DNA of 64,000 bases from assembly GCA_024228115.1 (NCBI GenBank), contig JAAETT010000050.1, positions 16,750 to 80,749 on the forward strand, in the 5' to 3' direction. Below are positions 17,289-62,997 of this stretch, in pieces. Position 1 is the stretch's first letter. Every line of letters starts with the position of its first letter. A model generated the notes under the pieces. That model worked only from the letters and a program-made list of their open reading frames with translations, did not search any database and was not told the DNA's origin. The stretch is from a bacterium (GTDB taxonomy: Bacteria > Myxococcota_A > UBA9160 > UBA6930). The position numbers were made by a program, and so were the translations under genes.

Positions 17289-17298
17289 GCTTCCCTCT

Positions 17299-19362: not shown

Positions 19363-19403
19363 TTCCTGATCTCCTCTCCCTCTGGGTTCCGTTCCTCGGC
19401 GAT

Positions 19404-20888: not shown

Positions 20889-21899
20889 CTACCTGCCGAC
20901 CTCGAGGACCGCTGCGCCTCGAATGCGATCCTCGGCAAGATCGAGGAGCGCCTCGTTCGCGCGCTCCAACGGATAGGAGAGGGTGTGGGGGCGGATGGGA
21001 ATCTCTTCCGCAAGGCGTAACAACGCACGCGCATCCTCACGTGTGTTGGCGGTGACGCTCACCAACTGGCGCTCCTGGAACAGGTGTCGGGCGTAGTCGA
21101 GGGCCGGGATCTGGCTCAGGTGGATGCCGGCAACGGCGAGGGTGGCGCCTCGATCGAGCGCTTCGAGTGCGGGCGGCACGAGCGTCCCGACGGGCGCAAA
21201 CAGGATCGCGCCATCGAGTCGCTCGGGCATCGGCTCGTTCGCGTCGCCGACCCATTCGGCCCCCATCTCCCGAGCCAGCGCCTGATGGCGGCCTCCGCGG
21301 CTCGCTACGTAGACGCGACAGCGATGCTGGCGTGCGATCTGGAGCACGATGTGGGCGGAGCCGCCAAAGCCGTAGAGTCCCAGGCGTCCACCCGGCTTGA
21401 CCCTCGATCGAACCCAGGCGCGGTAGCCGATGACGCCGGCGCATAGGAGCGGTGCCAGCTGGGTTGGGTCGGCGTCCTCCGGCAGCCGATGAACGAATTC
21501 CGCCGGGGCGATCACGGCCTCCGCATAGCCACCATCACAATCCCAGCCGGTGAAGGCGGGCTTCAGGCACAGGTTCTCATCGCCTCGAAGGCAGAAGCGG
21601 CATTGGCCGCAGCTGCGATGCAACCACGCGACGCCGACCCTCTCGCCTAGCCTGGGTTCGGTCACCCCGGCACCGAGTGCCTCCACACGTCCCACCACCT
21701 CGTGACCCGGGATCACATGGGGACGGCGAACGCCCAGATCTCCCTCGACCACGTGGAGGTCGGTGCGACATACGCCGCATGCCTCGACCCGCACGCGAAG
21801 CTCACCCGGGCCAGGCTGGGGCAAAGGACGTTCGGCCAGGCGCAGCGGCTCTTCCGCCACAGGCCGGGGCTCATCGAGCTCCATCACGCGCATGCGCAT
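20889..21899 (-). CDS. Zinc-dependent alcohol dehydrogenase (MDR superfamily)
   Basis: Catalytic and structural Zn motifs (GVCRTDLH, GHEVVG, C..C..C.......C) and a Rossmann GFGGSAH motif. Confidence 0.85.
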   Translation of the reverse strand: MRMRVMELDEPRPVAEEPLRLAERPLPQPGPGELRVRVEACGVCRTDLHVVEGDLGVRRPHVIPGHEVVGRVEALGAGVTEPRLGERVGVAWLHRSCGQCRFCLRGDENLCLKPAFTGWDCDGGYAEAVIAPAEFVHRLPEDADPTQLAPLLCAGVIGYRAWVRSRVKPGGRLGLYGFGGSAHIVLQIARQHRCRVYVASRGGRHQALAREMGAEWVGDANEPMPERLDGAILFAPVGTLVPPALEALDRGATLAVAGIHLSQIPALDYARHLFQERQLVSVTANTREDARALLRLAEEIPIRPHTLSYPLERANEALLDLAEDRIRGAAVLEVGR

Positions 21900-37479: not shown

Positions 37480-38619
37480 CTAGGGGCCGATCGGTCCCGT
37501 TTTCTTGATCTGCTCCAGGTAGTCGTTGTCCCACTCGCCCTCGACGTTCACGTGGGCGGCGGCGCCCTTCAGCACGGCGTCGATCAGGTTGTGGTTCAGG
37601 TACACGTAGAGACCCGGCTGGACGAACTTGTAGAGCGCGGCGCCGGCGGAGCCACCGGCGATGAACCACGTCTCGAGGTCCGTCTGGGGCGGATCGGAGA
37701 AGGAGCCGCTGGCCCATACGTAATCGCCGTGGCCGCCGATCAGGTGGGGACGGGTGTCGCGGTTCGCCTGGGAGTGGAGGAAGAGCACCGTCTCCCCCAC
37801 CTTGGCCGTGAGCGAGCTCTCACCCGTGAGCGCGCCAACTGCGCCATTGAAGACGACGTGGCTGGGCTCGTTGGTCTTCATCACCTCGAGCGTCTCGGGC
37901 ATCGCTGCGGCCGGACCGTCGTACTCCTTGTACCTGCCGTCGATGCCCTTGGCGACGTAGAAGTCCTGCTCACCGATGTAGTAGGCCTTGTCGTAGCGCA
38001 GCGGCTTTCCGGAGCGATCCTTGAGGCCTTCGCGAGGCAGCACCATGATGGCGCCGTTCATTCCTGCGACCACGTGGTAGGGGATCATCGCGCCACCGGG
38101 CGCGCAGTGGTAGACGAACACTCCGACCTTGGTGGCCTTGAAGCGGATCGTGGCTTCCTGGCCAGGGTTCACCAGTGTCATGCCCGCACCGCCCAGGGCG
38201 CCGGTCACGGCGTGCAGATCGATGTTATGGCTCATGATGTTCGAAGAAGTACCCTCCCAACCCTCGCCCCCGGTGATCTCGCCGGCAGGGTTCACGAGTG
38301 TGAGCTCCACGTAGTCGCCCTCGTGCACCACGATCATCGGCCCGGGAACGCTGCCCTGGAAGGTCAGGGCGTTGAGCTTGGTGCCCGCACCGTCGATCAC
38401 CAACTCCCGCTCGACCACTTCGAGCCGGACCTCGACGATCACCGGATCGCCCTTCGCCACCTGGTCGTGCTTCGGCAGGAAAGGCGGCTTCACCATCACC
38501 TGATTCACCCGTCGCAGACCCTCGGCCTTCGAGGGCTTGTCCGCCGCAGCCGGGCCGACACCCACCACGAACGCAAGCGCCACGAGCACTGCGAGTCGAG
38601 TCATCGAGATTCTTCTCAT
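37480..38619 (-). CDS. nirK: Copper-containing nitrite reductase NirK
   Basis: Signal peptide. Cu ligand blocks [36 protein letters not shown] and [21 protein letters not shown]. The ATG at 38619 (GGAGGG SD) overlaps the SCO1 stop (ATGA). The 562-aa ORF in the track is an upstream extension. Confidence 0.93.
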
Positions 38620-39368
38620 CCCTTTTTTCCCTCCGTGCCCTGATGTGCTCCATGGTTGGCGGGATCGTGTGGGCACGGTGCCCCGCCGGAACGGCACTTC
38701 GCATCGAGCGGAGCATTCGGGCTTCCCCCATCGGCAGGCGGGGCGTGTGCGGGCTCCTCGAGGAGCGCCAACACCGCCGCCTGCATCTCTTCCAGGGGTG
38801 AGCCGGTGAAGAACAGGGCTCGTGTGCGGCCCTGCTTGTCCAGCAGGTAGATCTGCTGGGAGTGCGAATACAGGTAGGCGCTCTTCACCGGTGTATGGGT
38901 CCGGTTGTGCTCGTTGCTGAGTTCCACGCCGTGGCTCCGGCTGTGGTCGACCATGAAGAGCTTTGCCAGCGCGTCTGCCTGCTCGCGCGTTCCAGTCAGC
39001 CCGATGAAGCGCGAATCGAACTGGGCCAGGTATGCGCGCAGGTGCTCCGGTGTATCGTTCTCCGGGTCTACCGTTGCCAGCAACACCTGCACGTCGTCGG
39101 CCCCCGCTCCGAGGCGCTTCATCAGGGTGTGAAGGTGAGAGAGCGTGGCGGGGCAGACGTCCTGACAACTCGTATAGCCGAAGAACAGCAGCACGCTCTT
39201 GCCACGAAATTCCGAGAGGGTGACGTCGCGGCCGAGGCTGCTAGGCGCAGAGAACTCGCCACCGACCCCGTCGTGGACGGCCAGCATCGGGGTGTCCTCG
39301 GCGAGAGCGCCCGTGACCCAGAGCGACGTTGCGAAGACGGTCGTCAGGTACAGGGATTTCCAGCGCAT
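38616..39368 (-). CDS. SCO1/SenC-family copper chaperone/thiol-disulfide protein with a Cys/His-rich C-terminal tail
   Basis: Signal peptide, CQDVCP (CxxxCP) motif, conserved downstream His region ([13 protein letters not shown]). Tail sequence [20 protein letters not shown]. Confidence 0.85.
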
Positions 39369-39381
39369 GGCGCCACTCCAA

Positions 39382-39942
39382 TCAGTAACAGGTGATCTGC
39401 GGGCCTGTTCCGGGAAAGGCGAGCAGTGGACGCTCCTCGATGCGGAGGATCACAGGCTCGTCGCTCGGGAGCATGCGCAGGAACCAGGTGTGCTCACGGC
39501 GAGCGACGTGGGGTGAGCCGCCGCCATCCCGTGTATGGCGGTCAAAGCGGAAGTGCGCGCGATAGAGGTGATCGCCGGCAGAAACGATGCGAACCGGGTC
39601 GATCCGGTACTCGCGCTCGGGGTGCTCCTGCAGTAGATGGGCGTGCCAGGCGTGCAGGTCTTCCGGAGTCCGAATCGTGCCGCCGACCAGATCGATCTCG
39701 AACGGAGGATCGGCCAGATGGCTCTCGAACGCCGTTTCTCCGGACGCACGCACTTCGAGAAGGGCGAACCATGTGTGCACCAGGGTTTCGATACGTTGCT
39801 CCGGAGCGCGCGCTGCCTTCACCGGGTGTGGGCGGACTGCACGGGTGCCCCCGGATGCAAGACAGCCCGATAGGCCTGGGAGCAAGCAAAGCAGGAGCAG
39901 GCTGGCCAAGGGCAGCTCGCGTGCTGGAGCGGGGCGTTGCAT
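39382..39942 (-). CDS. Lipoprotein, NTF2/SnoaL-like fold suspected
   Basis: Lipobox LSGC after a hydrophobic signal (start MQRPAP at 39942). About 160-aa mature part. Lies 13 nt upstream of the sco1-like gene. Confidence 0.55.
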   Translation of the reverse strand: MQRPAPARELPLASLLLLCLLPGLSGCLASGGTRAVRPHPVKAARAPEQRIETLVHTWFALLEVRASGETAFESHLADPPFEIDLVGGTIRTPEDLHAWHAHLLQEHPEREYRIDPVRIVSAGDHLYRAHFRFDRHTRDGGGSPHVARREHTWFLRMLPSDEPVILRIEERPLLAFPGTGPQITCY

Positions 39943-40194
39943 GGGTGGGCTTCTCTGCTCCGCACGCTGAGAGCTTCTGGCGTCTACCTTGGTCACTTTG
40001 CAGGAATTCCAATCGACGGAGAGGCCCTTTGCCCTAATATGGCACATCGGTGTGGCGCCGGGGTCAGTCAAACGACCGATGCCGCATCTCGGGCTCACGA
40101 ACTATCCACTGCGGAGCCCGTGGTGGCGCTTGGCCCTCCGCCGCGAGATCCGCTCGAGCTGAGGCTCGGCCGATCGCTGGCCACAGGTAGAACC

Positions 40195-40638
40195 ATGATC
40201 CTCTCCCAAACAGCTGAATACGCCCTCAGGGCGATGGCATGGCTGGCGATCATGCCGACGGGAGAGCCGATGCGCGTGAAGGATCTGTCGATCGCGACGG
40301 GTATCCCGAGCCACTACCTCTCGAAGGTGATGCGGCGCCTGGTGCTGGCCGGCCTGCTGACCTCGCAGAAGGGGCAGGGCGGCGGCTTCCTGCTCTCGAA
40401 GGCACCCGACGAGATCCCTTTCATCGACATCCTGACAGCGGTGGACGCCTACTCGACGGATGGACGCTGCGCCTTCGGTTGGGGGAAGTGCGACGCGGCT
40501 TATCCCTGTCCACTCCACGGCTCATGGAGCCGGCTGAACGAACAACTCCGGTCCTGGGCCGAGGGCACCACCCTGGCTGACATCGCGAAAGACGGGGTCG
40601 AGAACCGGGACCTCAGGGTGGCGAGGGCGGCGCGCTAG
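40195..40638 (+). CDS. Rrf2-family transcriptional regulator (NsrR/IscR-like, three-Cys cluster motif)
   Basis: wHTH N-terminus (MILSQTAEYALRAMAWLA...), GQGGGFLL motif, Cys triad C-x7-C-x5-C (CAFGWGKCDAAYPC). Confidence 0.85.
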   Translation: MILSQTAEYALRAMAWLAIMPTGEPMRVKDLSIATGIPSHYLSKVMRRLVLAGLLTSQKGQGGGFLLSKAPDEIPFIDILTAVDAYSTDGRCAFGWGKCDAAYPCPLHGSWSRLNEQLRSWAEGTTLADIAKDGVENRDLRVARAAR

Positions 40639-40957: not shown

Positions 40958-40989
40958 CAACCAAGTTGGTTGGCACCCGTCATATGACG
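40958..40989. promoter_or_regulatory. Two adjacent perfect palindromes in the leader of the Nod-like gene (candidate operators)
   Basis: CAACCAAgTTGGTTG (40958..40972, 7-1-7) and CGTCATATGACG (40978..40989, 12 bp), about 100-130 nt upstream of the ATG at 41088. Confidence 0.35.
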
Positions 40990-41087
40990 TACGCGGAGCG
41001 CCTTGAGGTGATTGTAGGCTCCGCGCTTGTAGGGACCACAAGTCGATAAAGAGATCTCTAGGTCGATAGATCAGACAGGAGTCTAGG

Positions 41088-43403
41088 ATGAGCCAACAGG
41101 GCCGGAACCTCGCTCAGATCCTCCAGGACAAGAACACCTGGTGGGTGCATTTCTTGATCGTTGCCGCGATCTGCGCTGCGGGATTGATCTATCTCGGCAC
41201 GCAGACCTACGTGGGCGCACCGCCGCTGGAGTCTTACAAGACGGCCAGCGGGGAGACGGTGATCTCGCGTGAGCAGATCAAACACGGGCAGGAGGTGTTC
41301 CACCTCAGGGGCCTGATGGGTTACGGCTCGTTCTGGGGCGACGGAGCGGAACGTGGGCCGGACTTCACTGCGGATGCTCTGCACCGGACGGTTGTCTCGA
41401 TGCGGTCGTTCTATGAAGCCGAGTTGGGCGGTACTGTCAGCCAGTACGACAAGGATGCGATCGAGGCGCGGGTTCGCCGAGAGATTCATACGAACACCTG
41501 GGACGAGAGCGCCGGTCATATCCTCATCAGCGATGCCCAGACCAAGGCGTTCGAGGATCTGGTTGTTCATTTCACGGCGATGTTCAACGATCCGACGTAT
41601 GAAGAATCCTTTGAGCCGGCTGGCTTCATCTCCGACCCCGACGATCTTCGGGATCTGTCCGCCTTCTTCTTCTGGGGCGGTTGGGTCTCCGGGGCGAATC
41701 GACCGGGTGAGATCTACAGCTACACGCACAACTGGCCGTATGATCCCGACGCTGGCAACACGGCCACGAGCCAGACCTGGATCTGGAGTTTCATTTCGAT
41801 CTTTGGACTGTTCCTGGGAATCCTGGCGGTCCTGTACGTGTACGGGCAATTCAAGGAGCAAGGGGATCCGTTCGCGGGGAACGGGACGTCGCTGACCACG
41901 AACGACCTGGAGGAGGGACGCGTACGTGCCACGCAGCGGGCCACGTACAAGTTCTTCGTGTTCTCGATCATCCTGTTCGGGTGTCAGGTCCTGGCCGGTG
42001 TGTTCGCCTCGATGGACTTCGTGCGTCCGTTCGGGTTCTCTCTCGGGGACATCATTCCGTTCACGGTGTTGCGCAGCTATCACACACTGTTCCAGATCTA
42101 TTGGTTCTTCATGGCATGGGTCGGTTATACGATCTTCTTCCTGCCCCGGATCTCGAGGGTTCCGGACGGGCAGCTAGCCCTGATCAACGGGCTGTTTGCG
42201 CTGTGTATCGTCACAGGTGTGGGCGCGCTGGTGGGCATCTATGCCGGCCAGACGGGCATGATCACCGGTGCGACCGCGTACTGGTTCGGGAGCCAGGGCT
42301 GGGAGTTCATGGAGATCGGTCGAGCCTTCCAGTACACGCTGCTGACCTCGTTCGCTCTCTGGATCTACATCATCTTCCGCGCCGTGAGGCCGTGGCTGAC
42401 GACCAAGAACATCTGGTCCGTTCCCGCGTGGCTGCTCTACGGCAGTGGGATCATGGTCGCGTTCTTGTTCTTCGGGCTGATGATTTCGCCGGAGCAGAAC
42501 TTTGCGGTTTCGGACTACTGGCGCTGGATGGTCGTGCACATGTGGGTGGAGGTCACCTTCGAGGTGTTCACGACGGTGATCGTCGGGTACATCCTGGTGC
42601 AGATGGGCCTCATCTCACGGATGATGGCTGAGCGGGTCATCTTCCTGGCCGTGATGATGTTCCTGGTCACCGCGACGCTCGGCATTTCGCACAACTTCTA
42701 CTGGATCGCGAAGCCGACGGGAATCATCGCCGTGGGAGGCGTCTTCTCGACACTTCAGGTGCTGCCGCTGCTCTTGCTGACACTCGATGCCTGGCGAGGA
42801 AAGTCGGAAGCGGGTCGGGCCCAGAAGCATGTGGTCGCAGGAAGACAGGCCTTCTTGATGGAAGGCGTCTGGCTGTTCATCCTGGCCGTCAACTTCTGGA
42901 ACATCTTTGGAGCGGGAGTATTTGGCTCGCTCATCAACCTTCCCATCGTCAACTACTACGAGCACGGCACCTACATGACGGGCAACCATGCTCATGCCGC
43001 CATGTTCGGGGTGAAGGGAAACATCGCCCTCGGCGGGATGCTGTTCTGCATTCAGCATCTGATCCGGAAAGAAGCCTGGAACGAGCAGTTGGTCAAGCGA
43101 GCCTTCTGGTCGCTGCAGCTTGGATTGGCGTTGATGATGTTCCTCGATCTGTTCCCGGTCGGGATGTACCAGCTCATGATCGTGGTCCAGGAAGGGCTCT
43201 GGTTCGCCCGCTCCCAGGAGATCCTGACCGGAAGCGTGTGGAAGGTCCTGACCTACTTCCGCTCGATCGGAGGGACCCTGTTCATCGTGGGTGGCGTGTT
43301 GCCTCTGATCTACTTCTTCCTGAAGAGCGGCCTCGAGCTCAAAGCCGAAGCGGATTCGGACGAAGGCGAGTGGACCGTCTACGAGAAGGATTGGGCGGCC
43401 TGA
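41088..43403 (+). CDS. nod: Atypical qNor-family haem-copper oxidase with Nod-type (putative nitric oxide dismutase) substitutions
   Basis: 771 aa with qNor architecture and no CxxCH. Haem His residues are retained (His484 in HMWVE; NHAH). However the HH pair is HN (GISHNFYW, His535-Asn536), the LEV Glu is Gln (STLQVLPL, Gln557), the C-terminal GD is GG (RSIGGTLF), and the periplasmic motif is YTHNWPYDP. The canonical paralogue at 56935..59268 has GTFHHLYF, SALEVVPL, LVGDTIF and YTNNWPHEP. Confidence 0.85.
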   Translation: MSQQGRNLAQILQDKNTWWVHFLIVAAICAAGLIYLGTQTYVGAPPLESYKTASGETVISREQIKHGQEVFHLRGLMGYGSFWGDGAERGPDFTADALHRTVVSMRSFYEAELGGTVSQYDKDAIEARVRREIHTNTWDESAGHILISDAQTKAFEDLVVHFTAMFNDPTYEESFEPAGFISDPDDLRDLSAFFFWGGWVSGANRPGEIYSYTHNWPYDPDAGNTATSQTWIWSFISIFGLFLGILAVLYVYGQFKEQGDPFAGNGTSLTTNDLEEGRVRATQRATYKFFVFSIILFGCQVLAGVFASMDFVRPFGFSLGDIIPFTVLRSYHTLFQIYWFFMAWVGYTIFFLPRISRVPDGQLALINGLFALCIVTGVGALVGIYAGQTGMITGATAYWFGSQGWEFMEIGRAFQYTLLTSFALWIYIIFRAVRPWLTTKNIWSVPAWLLYGSGIMVAFLFFGLMISPEQNFAVSDYWRWMVVHMWVEVTFEVFTTVIVGYILVQMGLISRMMAERVIFLAVMMFLVTATLGISHNFYWIAKPTGIIAVGGVFSTLQVLPLLLLTLDAWRGKSEAGRAQKHVVAGRQAFLMEGVWLFILAVNFWNIFGAGVFGSLINLPIVNYYEHGTYMTGNHAHAAMFGVKGNIALGGMLFCIQHLIRKEAWNEQLVKRAFWSLQLGLALMMFLDLFPVGMYQLMIVVQEGLWFARSQEILTGSVWKVLTYFRSIGGTLFIVGGVLPLIYFFLKSGLELKAEADSDEGEWTVYEKDWAA

Positions 43404-46320: not shown

Positions 46321-47286
46321 ATGAGCTTCGAGACGATCGATACTACGGTCCAGGCGCTTTGGCGCTTCGACTATGACACGAACATCAAGGCGCTTCGCGA
46401 TCTCTATGAGGTGGCCAAGAAGGAGCAGTGGAACGCCGCGCTGGACATCCCTTGGGAGATCGAGACCGACCCGAGCCAGATCGGCGACATGAGCGCTCAG
46501 TTCGCCGAGCCGTACGATTTCGTCAAGGCGCTCCCGATGGAGAAGCAGATCGAACTCTCGAAGCGGCGCTCGGCCCACCTGCTGTCGACTTTCCTGCACG
46601 GTGAGCAGGGTGCGATGATGATCTGCGGGCAGCTCGTGGAGGTCGTGCCGGACATGGACGGCAAACTCTACGCGTCCACGCAGGTGATCGACGAGGCCCG
46701 TCACGTCGAGGTCTTCCACCGCTACATCCAACGCCTGGACCGCATCTACCCGATCATGCCCGGGCTGAAGGCGTTGCTCAACGCGGTACTCACGGCGGAT
46801 CTCTGGCAGATGAAGTGCGTCGGCATGCAGGTCATCGCGGAGAGCCTGGCCATGGGATCCTTCAAGATCATGAAGGAAATCACGGGGGACGAGGTCTTTC
46901 GCAAGATCCTGGAGCTCACCTCCCAGGACGAGGCGCGGCACGTGTCCTACGGGCTGATCTACATGAAGGACGCGATCCCGAAGATGAACGAGCCCGACCG
47001 CGACCGCCTGGAGGACTTTGCCTGGACGGCGATGACGCTGCTCGCGACGACCCCACAGATGGAAAAGGGCAAGGCGTGGGTCGATCCCATGGAGGAGATC
47101 TACGCCTCTGTTGGGGTCGATCCCAAGAAAGCGTCCAGCGAGATCGCCTCGAGGTTGAGCGACCCGGAGACGGCCAAGTCTCAGCCGAATCCCTTCCGCG
47201 AGTATGCCTTCCCGCAGCTCCAGCGCGTCGGTCTGATCACCGACCGCACGATCTCGAAGTATCGCGAGGTGGGCCTGGCGGACTGA
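46321..47286 (+). CDS. Ferritin-like di-iron carboxylate protein (putative oxygenase/oxidase, AurF/R2-like superfamily)
   Basis: Two E...ExxH halves: HGEQGA ... DEARHVEVF and IAESLA ... QDEARHVSY. 321 aa. Confidence 0.7.
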   Translation: MSFETIDTTVQALWRFDYDTNIKALRDLYEVAKKEQWNAALDIPWEIETDPSQIGDMSAQFAEPYDFVKALPMEKQIELSKRRSAHLLSTFLHGEQGAMMICGQLVEVVPDMDGKLYASTQVIDEARHVEVFHRYIQRLDRIYPIMPGLKALLNAVLTADLWQMKCVGMQVIAESLAMGSFKIMKEITGDEVFRKILELTSQDEARHVSYGLIYMKDAIPKMNEPDRDRLEDFAWTAMTLLATTPQMEKGKAWVDPMEEIYASVGVDPKKASSEIASRLSDPETAKSQPNPFREYAFPQLQRVGLITDRTISKYREVGLAD

Positions 47287-47742: not shown

Positions 47743-48093
47743 ATGCTGAAGTACTACGCGTTTCTATTTCTGATCTTGGGAATAGCTCTGTTCTACGTCT
47801 ATGTGAAGGACCCTTGCAATAGACAGTTGAGGATGGATTTCGCAGACCAGCATCCAAGCTACGAGATCTTGGATTCCGGCGCTCTAGAAGGATCTCCGGA
47901 AACTGTCCGCTGTCAGGTCTCCTATCGGAAGCCCGATGCTGAACAGGTGTACAAAGACATCTGGCTGTATCAACACTCAAAACAAGGTTGGGAATTCTCT
48001 AGAATCCTCGGGACTCGCGAGGCAGGACAGGCGGGCCAAGGTGACGATCCACGCCCTCGAAACGACGACCAAGCGGCGTCTCCACGGTCGTGA
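47743..48093 (+). CDS. Hypothetical small membrane-anchored protein in a low-GC islet
   Basis: N-terminal TM (YYAFLFLILGIALFYVYV) plus an approximately 70-aa domain and a low-complexity tail. Local composition is clearly AT-richer than the flanks. Confidence 0.45.
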   Translation: MLKYYAFLFLILGIALFYVYVKDPCNRQLRMDFADQHPSYEILDSGALEGSPETVRCQVSYRKPDAEQVYKDIWLYQHSKQGWEFSRILGTREAGQAGQGDDPRPRNDDQAASPRS

Positions 48094-48141: not shown

Positions 48142-48591
48142 TCAGTACTCGATCAGCTTCGCGAGGATCTCCGCCCAATCGGCAGTGAGGGCCCGCTCCG
48201 CCATGGGGTAGAGCATCTGCTCTTCCTTCTGATTGTGCTGTTGGATCAGCATCAACAGGGTATCCCCGAGATCGACGAGTTCGTCGTAGTCGTCCCCGTC
48301 CGCTGCAATGCCCATTTGCTCGATGAGCCCGCGCATCTGGTCATGCTCGGATCTCATCATGAAGGTGGGGCCGGCCTGAGTCATGCCGCTTGCCTGCTCG
48401 AAGGCCGGGAACATCACCTCCTCCTCCATCCGGAGATGCCGCAGCATCTGGCTCTGGAATGTGCGCCACCTCTCCTTCTCAAGCTCCACATCGCCGGCCT
48501 GCACTGCGGCCTCGACCTCGGCCCACTTCTCGTCGCAGCGACGGTGGTCGAGCGTGAAGAACTGCTGCAGGCTCAGACTGGTGTCGGACAT
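48142..48591 (-). CDS. Hemerythrin (HHE cation-binding) domain protein, NorA/DnrN-like
   Basis: Repeated H...E motifs (HRRCDEKW, HLRMEEEVMFP, SEHDQM, QHNQKEEQMLYP). Start MSDTSL at 48591 with a GAGGAA SD. Confidence 0.8.
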   Translation of the reverse strand: MSDTSLSLQQFFTLDHRRCDEKWAEVEAAVQAGDVELEKERWRTFQSQMLRHLRMEEEVMFPAFEQASGMTQAGPTFMMRSEHDQMRGLIEQMGIAADGDDYDELVDLGDTLLMLIQQHNQKEEQMLYPMAERALTADWAEILAKLIEY

Positions 48592-48683
48592 CCGGTTGTT
48601 TCCTCGTGGTGGCACGAGATCACCCGAGGTATGGGCAATCCCAGAAAATGCGTTCGTAGCAGTGTGCTAAGCAACCTGCCAGG

Positions 48684-49193
48684 ATGGCTCACCAGGGAAG
48701 AGACAACGCGCGCAGCACATCGATGCAACAACGGGGGCAGCGCGAATCGGGAGTCCAGAGGATCTGCCATTGCCGCTTCGACAGCGATGCGCCCGAATCT
48801 GTGCACGCGGTCGTCACGCACCAGCTGCAGGCGCTTCCGGAAGGCGGCATTCTCGAAGTGGAGTTGGGCTTCGATGCGTCGGGCCTTCTCGCTGAGTTCA
48901 CCGAGCACGGCGTTCATGCCCAGCTCGAAAAGATTGCGCGTCGCCGCTGGATGCTGCTGCTCCAGCCTCCGGGCGATCGCGAGCTGATGGATCTCTGTGA
49001 CCTCGAGGCCCCGCTGCCGATGGAGCAGGTCCTCGAGGCGGCGGCCGCGCTGCGGCCGGGTGAGGCGCTGATCGCCCGCACGCCCTGCTTCCCTCGTCCG
49101 CTGTTGGCCCAGCTCGATCGCCGGGAGCTGGACTGGGAGGCAGCCGAGGCGGCCGATACGAGCGGGCTCGTCTGGGTCGGAAGACCGGGCTGA
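48684..49193 (+). CDS. Tandem DUF2249-like (TusA/SirA-like fold) protein
   Basis: The second half, LDLEAPLPMEQVLEAAAALRPGEALIARTPCFPRPLLAQLDRRELDWE, fits my memory of the DUF2249 pattern. Divergent from the hemerythrin gene. Start uncertain. Confidence 0.6.
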   Translation: MAHQGRDNARSTSMQQRGQRESGVQRICHCRFDSDAPESVHAVVTHQLQALPEGGILEVELGFDASGLLAEFTEHGVHAQLEKIARRRWMLLLQPPGDRELMDLCDLEAPLPMEQVLEAAAALRPGEALIARTPCFPRPLLAQLDRRELDWEAAEAADTSGLVWVGRPG

Positions 49194-49196
49194 AGA

Positions 49197-50504
49197 ATGG
49201 TCGCCCTTCGCTTGAGTCTCCAGGATGCGCCCCCCCTCGAGATCCCCCTTTCGTTCTTCCTGACGGCGCCCCTGGCTTTGGCAGCTGCGGGGGCCACGGT
49301 GCTCCTTGGTGGGGTCGACGTGCTCACGAGCCGTTGGGTACCCCTCACGCTCGCCGTGACGCACCTCGGCACCCTCGGCTTCGTCTCCATGGTGATGCTG
49401 GGCGCGACGTATCAGATCGTCGCGGTGGTCGTCGGGAGTCCCATCCCCTGGCGGCGTTCCGCCCACGGTGTGCATGCGCTCTTCACGCTGGGAGTCGCCG
49501 GCTTCTGCTGGGGCATCGCGAGAGGGAATCCGTCGGTCGTCTTCGTGGCGATCGCAATCCTGACCTTCGGTGTCGGTCTCTTCGTGGTACCGGTCGGCAT
49601 CGCGCTGTTCAGGGCGCCTTCTCTGAACGAGACCGTCTTCGGAATTCGCGCGGCCGTCGGCTTCTTCTTTCTTGCGGCCGTCGCGGGCATCTGGATGGCT
49701 CACGGCATGAGCGGCATGGGCTTCCCCGGCTCCCGAACGCTCTGGAGCCAGGCGCACCTCTGCATCGCGCTCGTCGGCTGGGTCGGTGGGCTGGTCGCGG
49801 CGGTCTCGTGGCAGGTGCTGCCTATGTTCTACCTCGCACCGCACCCGCCTGGTGCCCTCAAGTGGACGGTGCAGATCCTTGCAGTATTCAACGGCATCGG
49901 GCCGGCACTCATCCTTGGCGTCGACTACTTCAGCCTGCTCGGTGAGAACTCACCGCCCCTCGAGCCCGCGGTTGCGGCAGCCGCCGCGCCCGGCATCTTC
50001 GCCATCTGGATGCTGCATCCGGCCGTCGCGGCGTGGAGCCTCTCGAGGCGGCGCCGTAAGCGGGTCGACGCGAGTCTGTACTTCTGGCAGGCCGGTCTGC
50101 TGATGGCTCCGCTCACCGCGCTGGCTGCCGTCGCCGCCTGGTCGTTGGACGCGATGCACTGGGACATCCTTTTCGGATGGCTCGTGCTCTGGGGCTGGGT
50201 CGGCATGATCATGCACGGGATGCTCACGCGCATCGTGCCCTTTCTCGTCTGGCTCCATCGTTACGCGCCCCTGGTGGGGAAGATGCGGGTGCCCTCGATC
50301 AAGAAGCTGCATCCCGAGGCGCTGACGCGCCGGGGGTTTGTGCTGCACGTCTCCTCGTTGCTTCTCGGCGTCGCGGCCATCCTCACTACTTCCGATCTGC
50401 TGTGTAGGCTCGCCGGACTGTCGCTCATCCTGACGGCGGTCTCGATCGCACATTTCCTCATCCACGTGCTGCGGCAGAAACCCCCGGCTCCGCTCGTCGC
50501 CTAG
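49197..50504 (+). CDS. Polytopic membrane protein (at least 10 TM, several intramembrane His), possibly NnrS-like
   Basis: 435 aa and almost entirely hydrophobic. Lies 3 nt after the DUF2249-like gene. His-containing helices (VTHLGTLGF, QAHLCIALVGW, MIMHGMLTRIVPF). Family not assignable by eye. Confidence 0.7.
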   Translation: MVALRLSLQDAPPLEIPLSFFLTAPLALAAAGATVLLGGVDVLTSRWVPLTLAVTHLGTLGFVSMVMLGATYQIVAVVVGSPIPWRRSAHGVHALFTLGVAGFCWGIARGNPSVVFVAIAILTFGVGLFVVPVGIALFRAPSLNETVFGIRAAVGFFFLAAVAGIWMAHGMSGMGFPGSRTLWSQAHLCIALVGWVGGLVAAVSWQVLPMFYLAPHPPGALKWTVQILAVFNGIGPALILGVDYFSLLGENSPPLEPAVAAAAAPGIFAIWMLHPAVAAWSLSRRRRKRVDASLYFWQAGLLMAPLTALAAVAAWSLDAMHWDILFGWLVLWGWVGMIMHGMLTRIVPFLVWLHRYAPLVGKMRVPSIKKLHPEALTRRGFVLHVSSLLLGVAAILTTSDLLCRLAGLSLILTAVSIAHFLIHVLRQKPPAPLVA

Positions 50505-51545: not shown

Positions 51546-51732
51546 TGAGGTCGCACCGCCATGTGGCGTTTCGCCACAGATGAAACCGGGGTTCAGGGCC
51601 CACCCCGTCGGGTCTATCGCTCGTGGGAGGCTATGACCGCGATCATATGCGCTGGCCGAGGCGCGGGTTACTCAAATGAAGAGACAGGCATTTTGCCGGC
51701 CGTGTGCGGCGCGCCCGCACCGAGGAGATTCG

Positions 51733-52242
51733 ATGGCCTCTGCAACCCCCTCTGTCGTCATCGCCCAGAAGGACGGCACTGTCGTCTCGCAGAATACTCC
51801 GGCGCGTCGATTGATGGGCCCCGGGGAGGGCAAGCTGTGCTGGGACGTGGTGGGCGGGCTGGAGGGGGCCGAGGGGCTTCCCTGCCAGACGAACTGTGTG
51901 GGGCGTCTGCTGTCGGAGGGGCTGGAGCGTACGCAGCGGGTAGACCTCAAGCTCGCTGGGAGAGAGCATCGTCTCACCTGCGTGCCGGTCGACGACACCG
52001 CTGTCTGCGTGCTCAACTGCGGTGTGGAGCACGATCCTGATCAGTGGCAAACCCTGACGGCCCGCGAGCAGGAGGTGCTTTCACTTCTCGCCGCGGGTGA
52101 CGAGACGCCGGCAGCGGCGAAGAAGCTGGGCGTCAGCGAGTACACGGTGCGCACCCACGTCGAGAAGATGCGGTCCAAGCTCGGCGTCGGGACCCGCGCT
52201 GCTCTCGTTGCCCTGGGCTTTCGCTTCGGATACCTGAGCTGA
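51733..52242 (+). CDS. One-component regulator: Cys-rich PAS-like sensor plus LuxR/GerE HTH
   Basis: GAGGAG SD before the ATG at 51733. N-terminal approximately 100 aa with six Cys (C36, C51, C55, C83, C92, C96). C-terminal LTAREQEVLSLLAAGDETPAAAKKLGVSEYTVRTHVEKMRSKLG. Confidence 0.8.
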   Translation: MASATPSVVIAQKDGTVVSQNTPARRLMGPGEGKLCWDVVGGLEGAEGLPCQTNCVGRLLSEGLERTQRVDLKLAGREHRLTCVPVDDTAVCVLNCGVEHDPDQWQTLTAREQEVLSLLAAGDETPAAAKKLGVSEYTVRTHVEKMRSKLGVGTRAALVALGFRFGYLS

Positions 52243-53528: not shown

Positions 53529-54143
53529 ATGAGCGGTCGGAGCGTCATCGCGTTCGACCAGAAACGACGCTCGCGGCGCCTCTTTCCGGAAGAGAGCATC
53601 GTGGCGATGTTCGTCTTCTTGATCTTCGACGCGATGATCGTCGCCGGCACCGTGGGCGGCTTCGTGCTCACGCGAGCGGCCGCTGGCGACACCTGGCCCC
53701 CGGCCGGGCAGCCATGGTTCCTGCCGGAGGATCTGGCGATCAACACCGCCGTCTTGCTGATGAGCGGTGCCCTGGTCTTCTTGGCGGCTCGCTCGTGGGA
53801 GAATCAAAAGAGCCGGATCGGCCCCCTCCTCCTCGCCGCCATCGCGTCCGGAACCTTCTTCGTAGTCTTCCAGGGCGTCCTATGGATCAGCCTGATCCGC
53901 CAGGGGTTGACCCTGAGCTCGAGCCAGCACGGCTACCTCTTCTGCGTCATCGTGGCGACGCACGTCGCCCACGCCGTGGGCGCCTTGATCCTCCTGAGCG
54001 TCATCTGGCTGCGCCTGAAGCCTCTGCGCGACGATGCCCCTGATCAGCGGCAATCCTCGAGCAGCAGCTTTCGGGTAGTGCGCCTCCTCTGGTACTACAC
54101 GGTGGGCGTCTGGCCGGTCCTCTGCCTCTGCCTCTATCGATGA
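53529..54143 (+). CDS. Haem-copper oxidase subunit III-like membrane protein (NorE-like)
   Basis: About 5 TM, CoxIII-type C-terminal helices (YLFCVIVATHVAHAVGALILL ... LLWYYTVGVWPVL). No subunit I/II gene is adjacent. Confidence 0.65.
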   Translation: MSGRSVIAFDQKRRSRRLFPEESIVAMFVFLIFDAMIVAGTVGGFVLTRAAAGDTWPPAGQPWFLPEDLAINTAVLLMSGALVFLAARSWENQKSRIGPLLLAAIASGTFFVVFQGVLWISLIRQGLTLSSSQHGYLFCVIVATHVAHAVGALILLSVIWLRLKPLRDDAPDQRQSSSSSFRVVRLLWYYTVGVWPVLCLCLYR

Positions 54144-54191: not shown

Positions 54192-54854
54192 TCACCAGGC
54201 CGCCGCGCAGCCACCCGCCGGCAGGCCGACCCGCGCGCGCAGGTCGACGAGCGGCTCAGCCATGACTTCCTCGTACCGGAAGCGGAACAGGTTTGGCAGC
54301 GCCTGTGCGGTCTTGACGAGCCTGCGGCTCTCGGCCCAGATCCCACCCCGCTTCAGGTAGCGGGCCGCCAAGTATGGCAATGCCGCCGTGAAGATGGTCG
54401 ACACTGGATCCCGTGTGTTGACGAAGAGAAACAGGTGCAGCGCGATCTCCTGGGGGGGGGAGGCGCCGATGCCGAGCATGACGTGGTGCAGGTCGTGTAG
54501 ACGTGCGAAGCGCGCGAACACCCAGTCGCGTTCCAGGTCTTCGAGGGAGCCCGGGCATATCTTGGCGTGGAAATCCGGGTCGAAGCCATTCATCGTGAAG
54601 AAGCGACTGTAGGCTCCGCCGAGTGTGGTCTCCGGCAGGCTTGCCAACGCGTCGAGATCGACTGGTGTGCGGGTCAGCGATTCCAGGAGCACACGCTCCG
54701 ACGCATCGACGCCGACGAGCATCTGCCGGCATGCCAGCCTCATCATCGGCGTGTCGGCAATGCTGTGCAGGAATTCGATGCCCAGATCGAGAGCGAACGG
54801 GTCATTCAACAACCCGGGCAGAGATCTCAGAAGCGGTCGGAGGTGAAGTGCCAA
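54192..54854 (-). CDS. Coq4-family protein
   Basis: HDLHHVMLGIGASPPQE matches the Coq4 HDxxH-x(n)-E metal motif. 220 aa. Confidence 0.65.
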   Translation of the reverse strand: MALHLRPLLRSLPGLLNDPFALDLGIEFLHSIADTPMMRLACRQMLVGVDASERVLLESLTRTPVDLDALASLPETTLGGAYSRFFTMNGFDPDFHAKICPGSLEDLERDWVFARFARLHDLHHVMLGIGASPPQEIALHLFLFVNTRDPVSTIFTAALPYLAARYLKRGGIWAESRRLVKTAQALPNLFRFRYEEVMAEPLVDLRARVGLPAGGCAAAW

Positions 54855-54860
54855 AACGAG

Positions 54861-55115
54861 TCAGTTCAGTAGCCCGAGCACGATTCGAATGAGCCCGAAC
54901 GCGATCAGGAAAGGAGGGCCGTGCTTGCTGAATGTGGGGTGTTGGGCGCGCCAGTTCGAGAAGAACTCGACGCTCGCTTCGGTCCGATGGATCTTGCCAT
55001 GGATCAGGGCGTGGCAGAACACGCCGCCCACGATATTGGCAGCCCCGATCAGATAGTCCAACATCTGACGTCGACCCATCTCGGTGGGGAGTTCGAAGAA
55101 GCAGCCGTCATCCAC
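54861..55115 (-). CDS. Hypothetical small protein (84 aa, hydrophobic C-terminus)
   Basis: GC3-rich ORF packed between the ferredoxin gene (30 nt) and the Coq4-like gene (6 nt) on the same strand. Confidence 0.45.
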   Translation of the reverse strand: MDDGCFFELPTEMGRRQMLDYLIGAANIVGGVFCHALIHGKIHRTEASVEFFSNWRAQHPTFSKHGPPFLIAFGLIRIVLGLLN

Positions 55116-55145: not shown

Positions 55146-55523
55146 CTACGCATCCTTGAACTCGGGCTCGGCCACGCTTCGGGGGAGAGCCTTGCGCGAG
55201 GGAATCAATCGCTCCCACCATTTCGGAGCATTGGCCGCCCGGAAGCGGGACGTCCTGGGCGAGAGAGTGGGCGGTGTGGGGGACTTGGCGTGGATTTTCT
55301 TGGCGCGCTCGAACAACACCTCTTCGGTTATCACGTTGCCGGGATCCCGGATGCAGGCATTGTCGATCGGGCATACCGCGGCACACTGCTCCGAGGAAAA
55401 GAAGCCCACGCACTCCGTGCAGAGAGCGGCGTTGATCACGACCCTGTCCTCGCCCGCCTGAATGCCATTGTTGGGGCAGCTGAGGAGACACGCGCCGCAG
55501 TTGATGCATGCGTCGGTGATCAT
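55146..55523 (-). CDS. 2x[4Fe-4S] ferredoxin (YfhL-like) with a basic C-terminal extension
   Basis: MITDACINCGACLLSCP ... CTECVGFFSSEQCAAVCP. The ORF-track start at 55700 is an upstream extension. Confidence 0.8.
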   Translation of the reverse strand: MITDACINCGACLLSCPNNGIQAGEDRVVINAALCTECVGFFSSEQCAAVCPIDNACIRDPGNVITEEVLFERAKKIHAKSPTPPTLSPRTSRFRAANAPKWWERLIPSRKALPRSVAEPEFKDA

Positions 55524-55815
55524 GGTCGGCAATGAAGGGCCTCCTCGGCGTCTGCCCCAAGTCCAAGCGCGGGCCTTTCTAGCCCATGATGGAGGACACA
55601 ACAGGGGGCTGCTCAGCGCATCGGTCATACGGCCGATCCTCCGGCAGGTGACCGATGCGGCAGCGTGTGCGAGGGTAACTCGGAGGCTCTCCGGCACCAA
55701 GGTGAGGGCTCTGGCGTGATATCCTGAGCTTCCCCCCTCGCCTTTCTCGTCCGATCGAAGAAAGCCGGCTGGTCTCCGTCATGGGACGGACACGGATGGA
55801 GGTCTGAGAGATCCG

Positions 55816-59428: not shown

Positions 59429-59432
<4 letters not shown>
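59369..59432. promoter_or_regulatory. AT-rich upstream region with 4x GTTATGA heptamers including a 7-3-7 palindrome (candidate NorR UAS)
   Basis: GTTATGA occurs at 59369, 59381, 59407 and 59426. GTTATGAtatTCATAAC spans 59407..59423. The last heptamer contains the norR ATG (59429). Confidence 0.45.
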
Positions 59433-60991
<1,559 letters not shown>

Positions 60992-61108: not shown

Positions 61109-62923
<1,815 letters not shown>

Positions 62924-62997
62924 GGTGGTCTCCAATAGAGTGTTACCGGCTAAATATTGTAAGTGACTCACACATAAGAGCCACCTACAATTCGACC

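What the first reader, a model, noticed from the sequence alone, without database searches (positions are those of the whole stretch)
41088..43403. qNor paralogue with the substitutions associated with putative nitric oxide dismutase (Nod)
Seen in sequence:
- The 771-aa product has the complete qNor layout: an N-terminal TM, a haem-free periplasmic domain, a 12-TM NorB-like core and no CxxCH.
- It keeps the haem-ligand histidines (RSYH, His484 in VVHMWVE, NHAH).
- It can be compared with the canonical qNor in the same window (56935..59268), and differs at the catalytic and quinol positions:
  - GTFHHLYFSG becomes GISHNFYWIA (His535-Asn536, codons 42690..42695).
  - SALEVVPL becomes STLQVLPL (Gln557, codon 42756..42758).
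  - C-terminal RLVGDTIF becomes RSIGGTLF (Gly729, codon 43272..43274).
  - YTNNWPHEPLVGN becomes YTHNWPYDPDAGN (His214).

Established knowledge (from memory, not re-checked): the qNor-like putative NO dismutases of Candidatus Methylomirabilis oxyfera and gammaproteobacterium HdN1 were singled out for three reasons. One FeB-ligating His is Asn, a conserved active-site Glu is Gln, and quinol-site residues including a C-terminal Asp are missing.

Inference: this gene is a Nod-type enzyme candidate (2 NO to N2 + O2) rather than an N2O-forming reductase. No Nod has been biochemically proven, so any new lineage in a new genomic context is valuable.
Basis: partly seen in the sequence, partly recalled or inferred. 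Interest (0 to 1): 0.92.

Follow-up and report, generated by a model that had tools for sequence, protein, structure and literature searches.

The report
Nod-type qNor paralogue, already catalogued
This gene is a real, intact member of the widespread "nitric oxide dismutase-like" branch of quinol nitric oxide reductases. It sits in a denitrification island of a marine Myxococcota-like genome, but the protein and its lineage are already public and its chemistry is still unproven.

Summary
**Observation: confirmed.** ORF 41088..43403 (+) encodes a 771-aa qNor-fold protein.
- Against G. stearothermophilus qNOR (3AYF) it keeps all haem ligands and His508, Glu512 and His559.
- It has Asn536 for His560, Gln557 for Glu581 and Gly729 for Asp746.
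- The quinol ligands His328 and Glu332 are Met309 and Arg313.
- The qNor at 56935..59268 (-) keeps every canonical residue.

**Interpretation: partly supported.**
- The protein is 63% identical to a Methylomirabilis oxyfera Nod.
- It falls in a 100%-bootstrap Nod clade that contains no canonical qNor.
- It is under purifying selection (dN/dS 0.06-0.16).

**It is not a new lineage.**
- The exact protein is GenBank MCP5055473.1.
- Relatives occur in at least 145 species genomes.
- Published Nod trees already describe a marine "Deltaproteobacteria" Nod branch.

**Function is untested.**
- NO dismutation is my leading reading, at about 0.4.
- An N2O-forming, quinol-independent reductase remains a serious rival.

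**Context.**
- Divergent lipoprotein-SenC-NirK operon.
- An Rrf2 regulator directly upstream.
- NirS and Nap elsewhere in the window, plus a NorR-controlled qNor.

**Most interesting by-product.** O2-dependent-type enzymes of unrelated families lie next to nod in different Nod subclades.

The parts
41088..43403 (+). nod-type qNor paralogue, 771 aa (= GenBank MCP5055473.1)
   Evidence: ORF. Pfam NorB_cytochrome_c-like + COX1. AF2 model pLDDT 84, pTM 0.87. Foldseek best hit 3AYF, TM 0.89/0.91. Exact match in NCBI. dN/dS 0.06-0.16.
42690..42695 (+). His535-Asn536 codons (Gs qNOR His559-His560); one FeB-ligand His replaced by Asn
   Evidence: Asn in 82/82 Nod-clade sequences and His in 16/16 canonical representatives in the set.
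42756..42758 (+). Gln557 codon (Gs Glu581)
43272..43274 (+). Gly729 codon (Gs Asp746, quinol site)
42012..42026 (+). Met309...Arg313 (Gs His328...Glu332, quinol-binding ligands lost)
   Evidence: The Thr/Met + Arg pattern matches the pattern reported for environmental nod (PMC10286720).
41727..41729 (+). His214 codon (Gs Asn234); Nod-clade marker of unknown role
40195..40638 (+). Rrf2-family regulator directly upstream of nod, with Cys92/Cys99/Cys105/His108 cluster-ligand pattern
   Evidence: Pfam Rrf2 E=1e-28. NCBIfam rrf2_super 106 bits; the NsrR equivalog scores only 36.7 against a cut-off of 182. Cys positions. Rrf2 lies near nod in 11 of 81 loci.
40977..40990 (.). Palindrome CCGTCATATGACGT about 105 bp upstream of nod; candidate operator
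   Evidence: Conserved as CCGTCATATGACGG in L001 and L002, and in degenerate form (1-2 mismatches) in L003 and L004, despite different upstream genes. Located.
41050..41059 (.). Second palindrome AGAGATCTCT between the promoter region and the RBS of nod
   Evidence: partly conserved in L002-L004.
37480..38619 (-). NirK, copper nitrite reductase (379 aa with signal peptide; the longer ORF to 39168 is over-extended)
   Evidence: TIGR02376 465.6 bits against a cut-off of 296.3. Start site.
38616..39368 (-). SCO1/SenC-type copper chaperone, 4-nt overlap with nirK
   Evidence: Translation with CQDVCP motif. Homologue L003:2533-3270 hits Pfam SCO1-SenC at E=6e-36.
39382..39942 (-). Lipoprotein of unknown family (LSGC lipobox), first gene of the lipoprotein-senC-nirK operon divergent from Rrf2-nod
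   Evidence: Homologues lie next to nirK in L001 and L003.
46321..47286 (+). Ferritin-like di-iron protein (two DEARH motifs; AurF family)
   Evidence: Pfam AurF 54.2 bits against a cut-off of 29.6. Weak PDB hits to aldehyde-deformylating oxygenase, R2lox and VlmB. Relatives lie near nod in 13 of 81 loci.
47743..48093 (+). 116-aa small membrane protein conserved near nod
   Evidence: Cluster 11, 12 loci. No Pfam family.
51676..52242 (+). LuxR/GerE-type regulator; the type found directly upstream of nod in many loci and (with PAS) in M. oxyfera
   Evidence: Pfam GerE. 18 loci. M. oxyfera context.
53529..54143 (+). COX3/NorE-like membrane protein, within about 1.8 kb of nod in 7 of the 10 nearest relatives
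   Evidence: Pfam COX3.
54192..55115 (-). Coq4-like protein (54192-54854) and 84-aa protein (54861-55115), co-linear with nod in L001 and L003
   Evidence: Pfam Coq4 E=1e-18.
55146..55532 (-). 128-aa 2x[4Fe-4S] ferredoxin; its orthologues lie immediately next to nod in L001, L003, L006, L007, L008, L010 and L043
   Evidence: tblastn 53% identity. Pfam Fer4 families. Distances. A 2-mismatch copy of the nod palindrome lies at 55776-55789.
56935..59268 (-). Canonical qNor (777 aa, = MCP5055492.1), keeping His328, Glu332, His559, His560, Glu581 and Asp746
59429..60991 (+). NorR, NO-sensing sigma-54 activator, divergent from qNor
   Evidence: NCBIfam NF003451 676.9 bits against a cut-off of 476.
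10346..11974 (-). NirS, cytochrome cd1 nitrite reductase
   Evidence: Pfam Cytochrom_D1 E=4.5e-122.
734..5928 (-). Periplasmic nitrate reductase genes (napB, Fe-S protein, napA, napD)
   Evidence: Pfam NapB, Molybdopterin with TAT signal, NapD.

Best explanation
The gene encodes a functional member of the Nod clade of the qNor family.

**Shown**
- It has the qNor fold.
- It keeps low-spin haem b (His332/His636), high-spin haem b3 (His634) and part of the non-haem metal site (His484, Glu488, His535).
- It lacks the third metal-ligand His (Asn536), the nearby catalytic/proton-relay Glu (Gln557) and all three polar quinol ligands (Met309, Arg313, Gly729).
- It is 63% identical to a Methylomirabilis oxyfera Nod.
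- The set of substitutions is fixed across the whole clade.

**Inferred**
- It cannot take electrons from quinol. It therefore acts on NO by chemistry different from that of the canonical, NorR-controlled qNor in the same window.
- NO comes from the divergently transcribed NirK and from NirS. Nitrate enters through Nap.
- Expression is probably set by the adjacent Fe-S-type Rrf2 regulator acting at conserved palindromes upstream of nod.

**Most likely reaction, by inference only**
- Electron-neutral disproportionation, 2 NO to N2 + O2.
- The O2 would be consumed locally by oxygen-dependent enzymes such as the linked di-iron protein.
For: **Sequence and fold**
- Residue correspondences to 3AYF.
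- Literature definition of Nod features.
- Clade-wide fixation of the three substitutions in 82 Nod-clade sequences, against the opposite states in the canonical sequences.
- 63% identity to M. oxyfera P0362, from FP565575.
- NJ tree: Nod clade bootstrap 100, stem 0.27, no canonical qNor inside.
- Fold TM 0.89-0.91 to 3AYF.
- Purifying selection, dN/dS 0.06-0.16.

**Context in the window**
- A complete canonical qNor with NorR in the same window makes simple redundancy unlikely.
- NirK, SenC, Rrf2, NirS and Nap are all present.

**Context in other Nod loci**
Unrelated O2-dependent-type enzyme families sit in or beside the nod operon in different subclades:
- A PhyH Fe/2OG dioxygenase 67-104 bp downstream in four alpha-type loci.
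- A di-iron ExxH-x2 protein within about 0.5 kb upstream of nod on the same strand in L054, L063, L069, L074, L076 and L078, with a 150-aa protein wedged between it and nod in L063, L074 and L078 and directly upstream of nod in L056.
- A di-iron protein within 0.4 kb in L004 and L005.
- A second di-iron family 68 bp downstream in L059.
Against: - No Nod has been assayed, and none is in the PDB copy. The reaction is inference.
- Small 2x[4Fe-4S] ferredoxin genes lie near nod in 34 of 81 loci and cytochrome b561 genes in 15. That would fit an electron-requiring enzyme.
- Haem b, the electron-entry haem, is conserved.
- Fuchsman et al. 2017 found that ODZ qnorB-like gene abundance tracks N2O. Elbon et al. 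cite N2O-producing foraminifera that express Nod.
- M. oxyfera itself has no di-iron or PhyH gene beside nod.
- The oxygenase association was not compared with a control set of canonical qNor loci.
Confidence: 0.4

Rival explanations
1. It is a quinol-independent NO reductase that still makes N2O. The Nod-type protein would receive electrons from a different donor chain: a ferredoxin with a membrane relay such as cytochrome b561, or a periplasmic cytochrome. It would reduce 2 NO to N2O at a modified metal site.
For: - Ferredoxin genes lie near nod in 34 of 81 loci. They are immediately adjacent in the window's own subclade, and cytochrome b561 genes occur in 15 loci.
- A cytochrome c gene lies downstream of M. 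oxyfera nod.
- Haem b ligands are conserved.
- ODZ qnorB-like abundance correlates with N2O production, and canonical nor genes are scarce there (PMC5723336).
- Elbon et al. cite N2O-producing foraminifera that express Nod.
Against: - The His and Glu that are lost are invariant in the 17 canonical qNor sequences compared here, and Ettwig et al. tie that Glu to catalysis.
- The organism already has a complete qNor with its own NO sensor.
- Ferredoxin is cytoplasmic and could instead serve the neighbouring oxygenase-type enzymes.
- There is no b561 gene in this window or in its closest relatives.
Confidence: 0.32
2. It is an NO-stress protein rather than a respiratory enzyme. Under Rrf2 (NsrR-like) control it would bind, buffer or slowly detoxify NO to protect the cell during nitrite reduction, with no role in energy or O2 supply.
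For: - An Rrf2 regulator lies directly upstream here and in alpha-type loci.
- Elbon et al. propose nitrosative-stress roles for Rrf2-linked nod.
- Hemerythrin and DUF2249 genes are nearby.
Against: - The Rrf2 protein does not reach the NsrR equivalog score (36.7 against 182).
- Strict conservation of a full haem/metal site and dN/dS near 0.1 point to catalysis.
- Published ODZ data report high transcription of nod genes in the anoxic core.
Confidence: 0.12
3. It is a decaying or non-functional duplicate of qNor whose active-site changes are random loss.
For: None beyond the loss of canonical residues.
Against: - dN/dS is 0.06-0.16.
- The same substitutions are fixed in 82 sequences across many phyla.
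- The ORF is intact and has an RBS.
Confidence: 0.01

Closest known systems
Putative NO dismutases of Candidatus Methylomirabilis oxyfera (two tandem paralogues in FP565575; one retrieved as P0362)
   Same: - 63% identity over 787 residues.
- Identical states at His560 to Asn, Glu581 to Gln and Asp746 to Gly, and loss of His328/Glu332.
- Same clade, bootstrap 100.
   Different: - Different subclade: M. oxyfera groups with Polyangiaceae, Binatia and Acidobacteria sequences that have Glu/Gly at the 328/332 positions. The window has Met/Arg and groups with Myxococcota MAGs.
- M. oxyfera has tandem copies with a PAS-LuxR regulator and a cytochrome c gene. The window has a single copy with Rrf2 and NirK.
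Marine Nod clades described by Elbon, Stewart and Glass 2024 (Alpha-type, Gamma-type such as NP964/PBRC01000062, and a marine Deltaproteobacteria branch)
   Same: - About 70-73% identity to Alpha- and Gamma-type loci (L009-L029).
- Same signature residues.
- Rrf2 or LuxR regulators beside nod.
- The nearest genome hits include an ETNP oxygen-deficient-zone Myxococcota MAG at 88%.
   Different: - This copy lies in a large denitrification island together with a canonical qNor.
- Its accessory genes (ferredoxin, COX3-like, Coq4-like, LuxR) are displaced 8-12 kb from nod, compared with relatives L001 and L003.
Quinol-dependent NO reductase of Geobacillus stearothermophilus (PDB 3AYF), and Neisseria and Alcaligenes qNORs
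   Same: - Same fold (TM 0.89-0.91, rmsd 2.9 A).
- Same domain order, same haem ligands, and His508, Glu512 and His559 retained.
   Different: - Only about 31% identity.
- Quinol ligands, one metal-ligand His and Glu581 are replaced.
The canonical qNor in the same window (56935..59268, NorR-regulated)
   Same: Same architecture and length. Both lie in one NO-handling island.
   Different: - 33% identity.
- It keeps every canonical residue.
- It is controlled by NorR rather than by an adjacent Rrf2 gene.

Membership tests
Nod (putative nitric oxide dismutase) clade of the qNor family | qNor architecture: N-terminal TM helix, haem-c-free cytochrome-c-like domain, NorB core, no CxxCH | tested here: met
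   Pfam domains. No CxxCH. Model with 14 long helices superposing on 3AYF.
Nod (putative nitric oxide dismutase) clade of the qNor family | One FeB-coordinating His (Gs His560) replaced by Asn (Ettwig et al. 2012; Schmitz et al. 2023) | tested here: met
   Asn536 aligns to His560. Definitions.
Nod (putative nitric oxide dismutase) clade of the qNor family | Active-site Glu (Gs Glu581) replaced by Gln | tested here: met
   Gln557.
Nod (putative nitric oxide dismutase) clade of the qNor family | Quinol-binding residues not conserved (Gs His328, Glu332, Asp746) | tested here: met
   Met309, Arg313, Gly729.
Nod (putative nitric oxide dismutase) clade of the qNor family | Branches with M. oxyfera Nod and apart from canonical qNor | tested here: met
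   NJ tree of 107 sequences, 200 bootstraps. The clade with M. oxyfera P0362 has support 100 and contains no canonical qNor. Pairwise identity is 63% to P0362 against 33% to the window qNor. An ML tree was not possible with the installed software.
Nod (putative nitric oxide dismutase) clade of the qNor family | Groups with the HdN1 Nod | not tested
   The HdN1 sequence was not retrieved. The only link is indirect: L023 (NP964) is called Gamma-type Nod, monophyletic with HdN1, by Elbon et al., and it lies in the same clade here.
Nod (putative nitric oxide dismutase) clade of the qNor family | Catalyses 2 NO to N2 + O2 without an N2O intermediate | not testable with these tools
   No enzyme of this clade has a solved structure, and none of the papers retrieved here reports an assay of a purified enzyme.
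Canonical quinol-dependent NO reductase (qNor) | Quinol-binding ligands His328, Glu332 and Asp746 | tested here: not met
   All three are replaced.
Canonical quinol-dependent NO reductase (qNor) | FeB site with three His plus Glu, and conserved Glu581 | tested here: not met
   His560 to Asn and Glu581 to Gln. His508, Glu512 and His559 are kept.
Canonical quinol-dependent NO reductase (qNor) | Overall fold and haem b / b3 ligands | tested here: met
NsrR (NO-sensing Rrf2 repressor), for the upstream regulator 40195..40638 | Reaches the NsrR equivalog score; three Cys cluster ligands | tested here: inconclusive
   Rrf2 superfamily membership is met (106 bits). NsrR scores 36.7 against a cut-off of 182, and IscR 67 against 207. 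Cys92/99/105 and His108 are present. Which signal it senses is unknown.

The most novel reading that the evidence does not exclude
Nod is the O2-generating core of a small 'intra-aerobic' oxygenase module. In different Nod subclades the gene has repeatedly become co-operonic with unrelated O2-dependent enzymes:
- a PhyH Fe/2OG dioxygenase in alpha-type loci;
- ExxH-x2 di-iron proteins, in several loci with a 150-aa protein of unknown family, in the Polyangiaceae/Binatia/M. oxyfera-type subclade and in the window's Myxococcota subclade;
- a second di-iron family in a Bdellovibrionota MAG.

On this reading the frequently linked ferredoxin feeds the oxygenase, not Nod. The window would then carry a dispersed version of the module: nod, the di-iron protein at 46321, the ferredoxin at 55146, and the COX3-like and Coq4-like genes.
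Probability: 0.25. Interest if true: 0.8.

Novelty: new member of a known kind. Interest (0 to 1): 0.38.

Why it matters
**The open question.** Whether Nod-type enzymes really split NO into N2 and O2 is unresolved. The answer bears on marine nitrogen loss, N2O emission and 'dark oxygen'.

**What this window does not add.**
- It is not a new lineage.
- The sequence is already in GenBank under a generic 'nitric-oxide reductase' name.

**What it offers.**
- A clean natural comparison in one genome. A canonical qNor with NorR and a Nod-type paralogue with its own Rrf2 regulator sit beside two nitrite reductases.
- A set of conserved accessory genes that could guide co-expression experiments: ferredoxin, COX3-like, Coq4-like and a di-iron protein.

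**The neighbourhood comparison.** It suggests a testable, apparently unreported pattern: oxygen-dependent enzymes of unrelated families next to nod. If that holds against controls, it would be independent genomic support for O2 production.

Tried and rejected
1. **Alkane monooxygenase link, as in HdN1: rejected.** The luciferase-like gene at 13966-14997 resembles F420-dependent Mer-type reductases, not LadA.
2. **'SCP2-like' label for the 150-aa protein upstream of nod in the E-type subclade: withdrawn.** It has no Pfam hit, so I call it unknown.
3. **B-family haem-copper oxidase near nod in L001/L002 as an O2 reductase: rejected.** It has GHMSQQ in place of the cross-link Tyr, so it is more likely an eNOR-like NOR.
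4. **The palindrome upstream of nod.** It is not a sigma-54 promoter: TGGCAC is present but there is no -12 GC element at the right spacing. It does not fit the NorR GT-N7-AC box as I recall it from memory. By eye it is not an FNR box either. The regulator is unknown. Window-wide counts of the two palindromes are not above chance, so the evidence is conservation only.
5. **Extending the window along its 85.9-kb contig: failed.** Exact-protein look-ups returned only short metagenome contigs, or nothing.
6. **ORF 37480-39168 as a 562-aa NirK with an N-terminal extension: rejected.** NirK starts at 38619, and the upstream region encodes SenC in another frame.
7. **A solved Nod structure: none found**.
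8. **Side-chain geometry.** It could not be measured because model coordinates are not exposed. Residue correspondences rest on the ungapped sequence alignment and the global superposition.
9. **HdN1 Nod: not retrieved.** M. oxyfera was missed by the genome scan because its motifs differ by one residue each (IHMWVEVT, FEVFTTCI). It was recovered by a profile search.
10. **A wasted literature query** returned nothing relevant.


Full report
**1.

- The + strand ORF 41088..43403 starts with ATG behind an AGGAG ribosome-binding site and encodes 771 residues.
- Pfam finds the haem-c-free 'NorB cytochrome c-like' domain at residues 50-218 and the haem-copper oxidase subunit I domain at 285-730.
- There is no CxxCH.
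The comparison gene on the - strand (56935..59268) carries the canonical versions.

**2. Residue correspondences**

The best solved relative is G. stearothermophilus qNOR, 3AYF (E=2e-122). The alignment is ungapped through the relevant helices. It gives:

| Window residue | Gs qNOR residue | Role |
|---|---|---|
| His332, His636 | His355, His653 | haem b ligands |
| His634 | His651 | haem b3 ligand |
| His484, Glu488, His535 | His508, Glu512, His559 | retained metal-site residues |
| Asn536 | His560 | FeB ligand, replaced |
| Gln557 | Glu581 | active-site Glu, replaced |
| Gly729 | Asp746 | quinol site, replaced |
| Met309, Arg313 | His328, Glu332 | quinol ligands, replaced |

- These are the features the literature uses to define putative NO dismutases (Ettwig et al. 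2012; Schmitz et al. 2023).
- His214 (Gs Asn234) is a good clade marker, but it is not a published functional residue.
- An AlphaFold2 model (pLDDT 84, pTM 0.87) superposes on 3AYF with TM 0.89/0.91 and rmsd 2.9 A.

**3. The pattern is a clade property, not chance**

- A scan of one genome per GTDB species found 145 genomes with relatives. The best 80 are 61-92% identical.
- All 79 extracted proteins, plus two distant 50%-cluster representatives, have Asn at 560, Gln at 581 and Gly or Ala at 746. They also lack one or both of the quinol ligands His328 and Glu332.
- All 17 canonical qNor sequences compared have His, Glu and Asp at those three columns.
- Thirteen alignment columns separate the two groups. 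The window protein carries the Nod state at all thirteen.

**4. Membership in the Nod clade was tested directly**

- A profile search recovered a Methylomirabilis oxyfera protein, P0362. A context look-up confirmed that it comes from FP565575 and is one of two tandem paralogues.
- It is 63% identical to the window protein over 787 residues. The window's own qNor is 33% identical.
- In a neighbour-joining tree of 107 sequences, every Nod-type sequence, including M. oxyfera, forms one clade. Bootstrap support is 100, the stem length is 0.27, and no canonical qNor lies inside.
- Within that clade the window protein belongs to a well-supported subclade (bootstrap 100) of Myxococcota/'Deltaproteobacteria' MAGs, including one from the ETNP oxygen-deficient zone.
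- M. oxyfera sits in a different subclade with Polyangiaceae, Binatia and Acidobacteria.
- The order of the subclades is unresolved.
- dN/dS against five relatives is 0.06-0.16, so the gene is functional.

**5. It is not new**

- The exact sequence is GenBank MCP5055473.1, 'MAG: nitric-oxide reductase [bacterium]', on an 85,876-bp contig. The qNor is MCP5055492.1 on the same contig.
- The 90%-identity cluster has 32 members from marine 'Deltaproteobacteria' MAGs. One of them was recorded on 57 contigs.
- The protein database holds more than 1,500 related 90% clusters. Some are already named 'nitric oxide dismutase' by JGI.
- Elbon, Stewart and Glass describe Alpha-, Gamma- and Planctomycetia-type marine Nods and a marine Deltaproteobacteria branch. 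They also note LuxR- or Rrf2-type regulators beside nod.
- Locus L023 here is their NP964 contig.

**6. Surroundings**

The window is a denitrification island.
- Genes present: napB, an Fe-S protein gene, napA and napD; an NrfD-like gene; multihaem cytochromes; and NirS.
- Just upstream of nod, on the other strand, is an operon of a lipoprotein, a SenC-type copper chaperone and NirK. NirK scores 465 bits on TIGR02376. I corrected its start to 38619.
- An Rrf2 regulator with a Cys92/Cys99/Cys105/His108 ligand pattern lies directly upstream of nod. It does not reach the NsrR equivalog score.
- Two palindromes upstream of nod, CCGTCATATGACGG and AGAGATCTCT, are conserved in the nearest relatives even where the upstream gene differs.
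- The canonical qNor is divergent from a NorR equivalog.
- So the two paralogues appear to have separate regulators. That argues against simple redundancy.

**7. Comparative neighbourhoods (81 loci)**

*In the window's subclade*
- A block of LuxR, rhomboid, COX3-like, Coq4-like, an 84-aa protein and a 2x[4Fe-4S] ferredoxin lies next to nod.
- In L003 the order is nod, ferredoxin, small membrane protein, 84-aa protein, Coq4-like.
- In the window this block is displaced to 51.6-55.5 kb.

*Across the family*
- Ferredoxins lie near nod in 34 loci.
- LuxR regulators lie near nod in 18 loci and Rrf2 regulators in 11.
- Cytochrome b561 genes lie near nod in 15 loci.

*O2-dependent-type enzymes of unrelated families are co-operonic with nod in different subclades*
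- A PhyH dioxygenase 67-104 bp downstream in four alpha-type loci.
- A di-iron ExxH-x2 protein within about 0.5 kb upstream of nod on the same strand in six loci of the M. oxyfera-type subclade (L054, L063, L069, L074, L076, L078).
- A 150-aa protein of unknown family between that di-iron gene and nod in L063, L074 and L078, with a copy also directly upstream of nod in L056.
- A di-iron protein within 0.4 kb in L004 and L005, and 2.9 kb downstream in the window (46321..47286).
- A second di-iron family 68 bp downstream in a Bdellovibrionota MAG.
- M. oxyfera itself lacks these genes.
- I ran no control on canonical qNor loci, so this is a lead and not a result.

**8. Function**

*What is shown*
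- The quinol site and part of the catalytic site are absent.
- The fold and the haem ligands are retained.
- The changes are fixed, and the gene is under selection.

*What is inferred*
- The enzyme handles NirK/NirS-derived NO without quinol.
- I rank NO dismutation first, at about 0.4. The residues lost are the ones needed for electron and proton delivery, a normal qNor is already present, and the oxygenase associations fit.
- An N2O-forming reductase with another electron donor is a close second, at about 0.3. The support is the ferredoxin and b561 linkage, the retention of haem b, and the field correlations with N2O.
- A stress-protection role is third.
- No solved structure of any Nod exists, and none of the papers retrieved reports an enzyme assay.

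**9. Verdict**

- The label 'Nod-type candidate' is justified by tested membership criteria.
- The claims of novelty and of product specificity are not justified.
- Interest is moderate to low for the gene itself. The neighbourhood pattern is the part worth following up.

Noticed in passing
L009, L015, L016, L018 (67-104 bp downstream of nod); L054, L056, L063, L069, L074, L076, L078 (upstream of nod); L004, L005; L059; window 46321..47286: O2-dependent-type enzymes of unrelated families are co-operonic with or adjacent to nod in different Nod subclades. They are a PhyH Fe/2OG dioxygenase and two ferritin-like di-iron families. P450 genes lie within 5-9 kb in L003, L004 and L076. I did not find this pattern mentioned in the Nod papers I read.
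   Followed up: partly
window 55146..55532 (-); L001, L003, L006, L007, L008, L010, L043 next to nod; 26 gamma-type loci 0.2-3.1 kb upstream (all but L020 at 1.3-3.1 kb): Small 2x[4Fe-4S] ferredoxin genes lie near nod in 34 of 81 loci. The window's copy has been moved 12 kb away, together with the Coq4-like, COX3-like, rhomboid and LuxR genes. In relatives these form a block beside nod.
   Followed up: partly
window 40977..40990, 41050..41059 and 55776..55789: A conserved palindrome, CCGTCATATGACGG, and a second one, AGAGATCTCT, lie upstream of nod in the nearest relatives. A 2-mismatch copy of the first lies upstream of the displaced ferredoxin gene. The regulator is unknown. The palindromes are not a sigma-54 promoter and, by eye or from memory, do not fit NorR or FNR sites.
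   Followed up: partly
window 37480..40098 (-): The long ORF first taken as a 562-aa multicopper oxidase is over-extended. The region encodes three genes as one operon: a lipoprotein (39382..39942), a SCO1/SenC copper chaperone (38616..39368) and NirK (37480..38619, with a 4-nt overlap).
   Followed up: yes
L001 about 14927-16650; L002 19484..21205 (-), with c27 and UbiA genes: The closest relatives carry a B-family-derived haem-copper oxidase near nod that lacks the cross-link tyrosine (GHMSQQ). In L002 a UbiA-family (possibly haem O synthase) gene lies in the same locus. It may be an eNOR-type NO reductase, so these organisms may hold three kinds of NO-handling HCO enzymes.
   Followed up: partly
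window 48142..50504: A hemerythrin (-), a DUF2249 protein and a 435-aa protein with no Pfam or NCBIfam family lie together. The 435-aa protein recurs within 10 kb of nod in four other loci, and the hemerythrin is nearby in three of them (L021, L023, L050).
   Followed up: no
window 12678..21899 (-); L063, L069, L074: A cluster of acyl-CoA dehydrogenases, a luciferase-like (Mer/F420-type) oxidoreductase, an AMP-ligase, a thiolase and a nitroreductase is 54-73% identical to genes lying 2-10 kb from nod in Binatia, Thermodesulfobacteriota and Polyangiaceae MAGs. This is a recurrent cross-phylum linkage of unknown meaning.
   Followed up: partly
window 1..719 and L081: The cytochrome c gene at 291..719 is preceded, in a second assembly (GCA_024449855.1), by another cytochrome d1-domain protein of 514 aa. 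The window therefore probably starts inside a second NirS/NirN-like gene.
   Followed up: no
window 51676..52242: The nod-associated LuxR-type regulator has a roughly 120-aa N-terminal region rich in cysteines (for example C-x15-C-x3-C) with no recognised domain. It may be a redox- or metal-sensing module.
   Followed up: no
window 61109..63067 (-): A flavin-containing monooxygenase-like gene (FMO/Pyr_redox_3) lies just beyond NorR. It is another O2-dependent enzyme type in the island.
   Followed up: no
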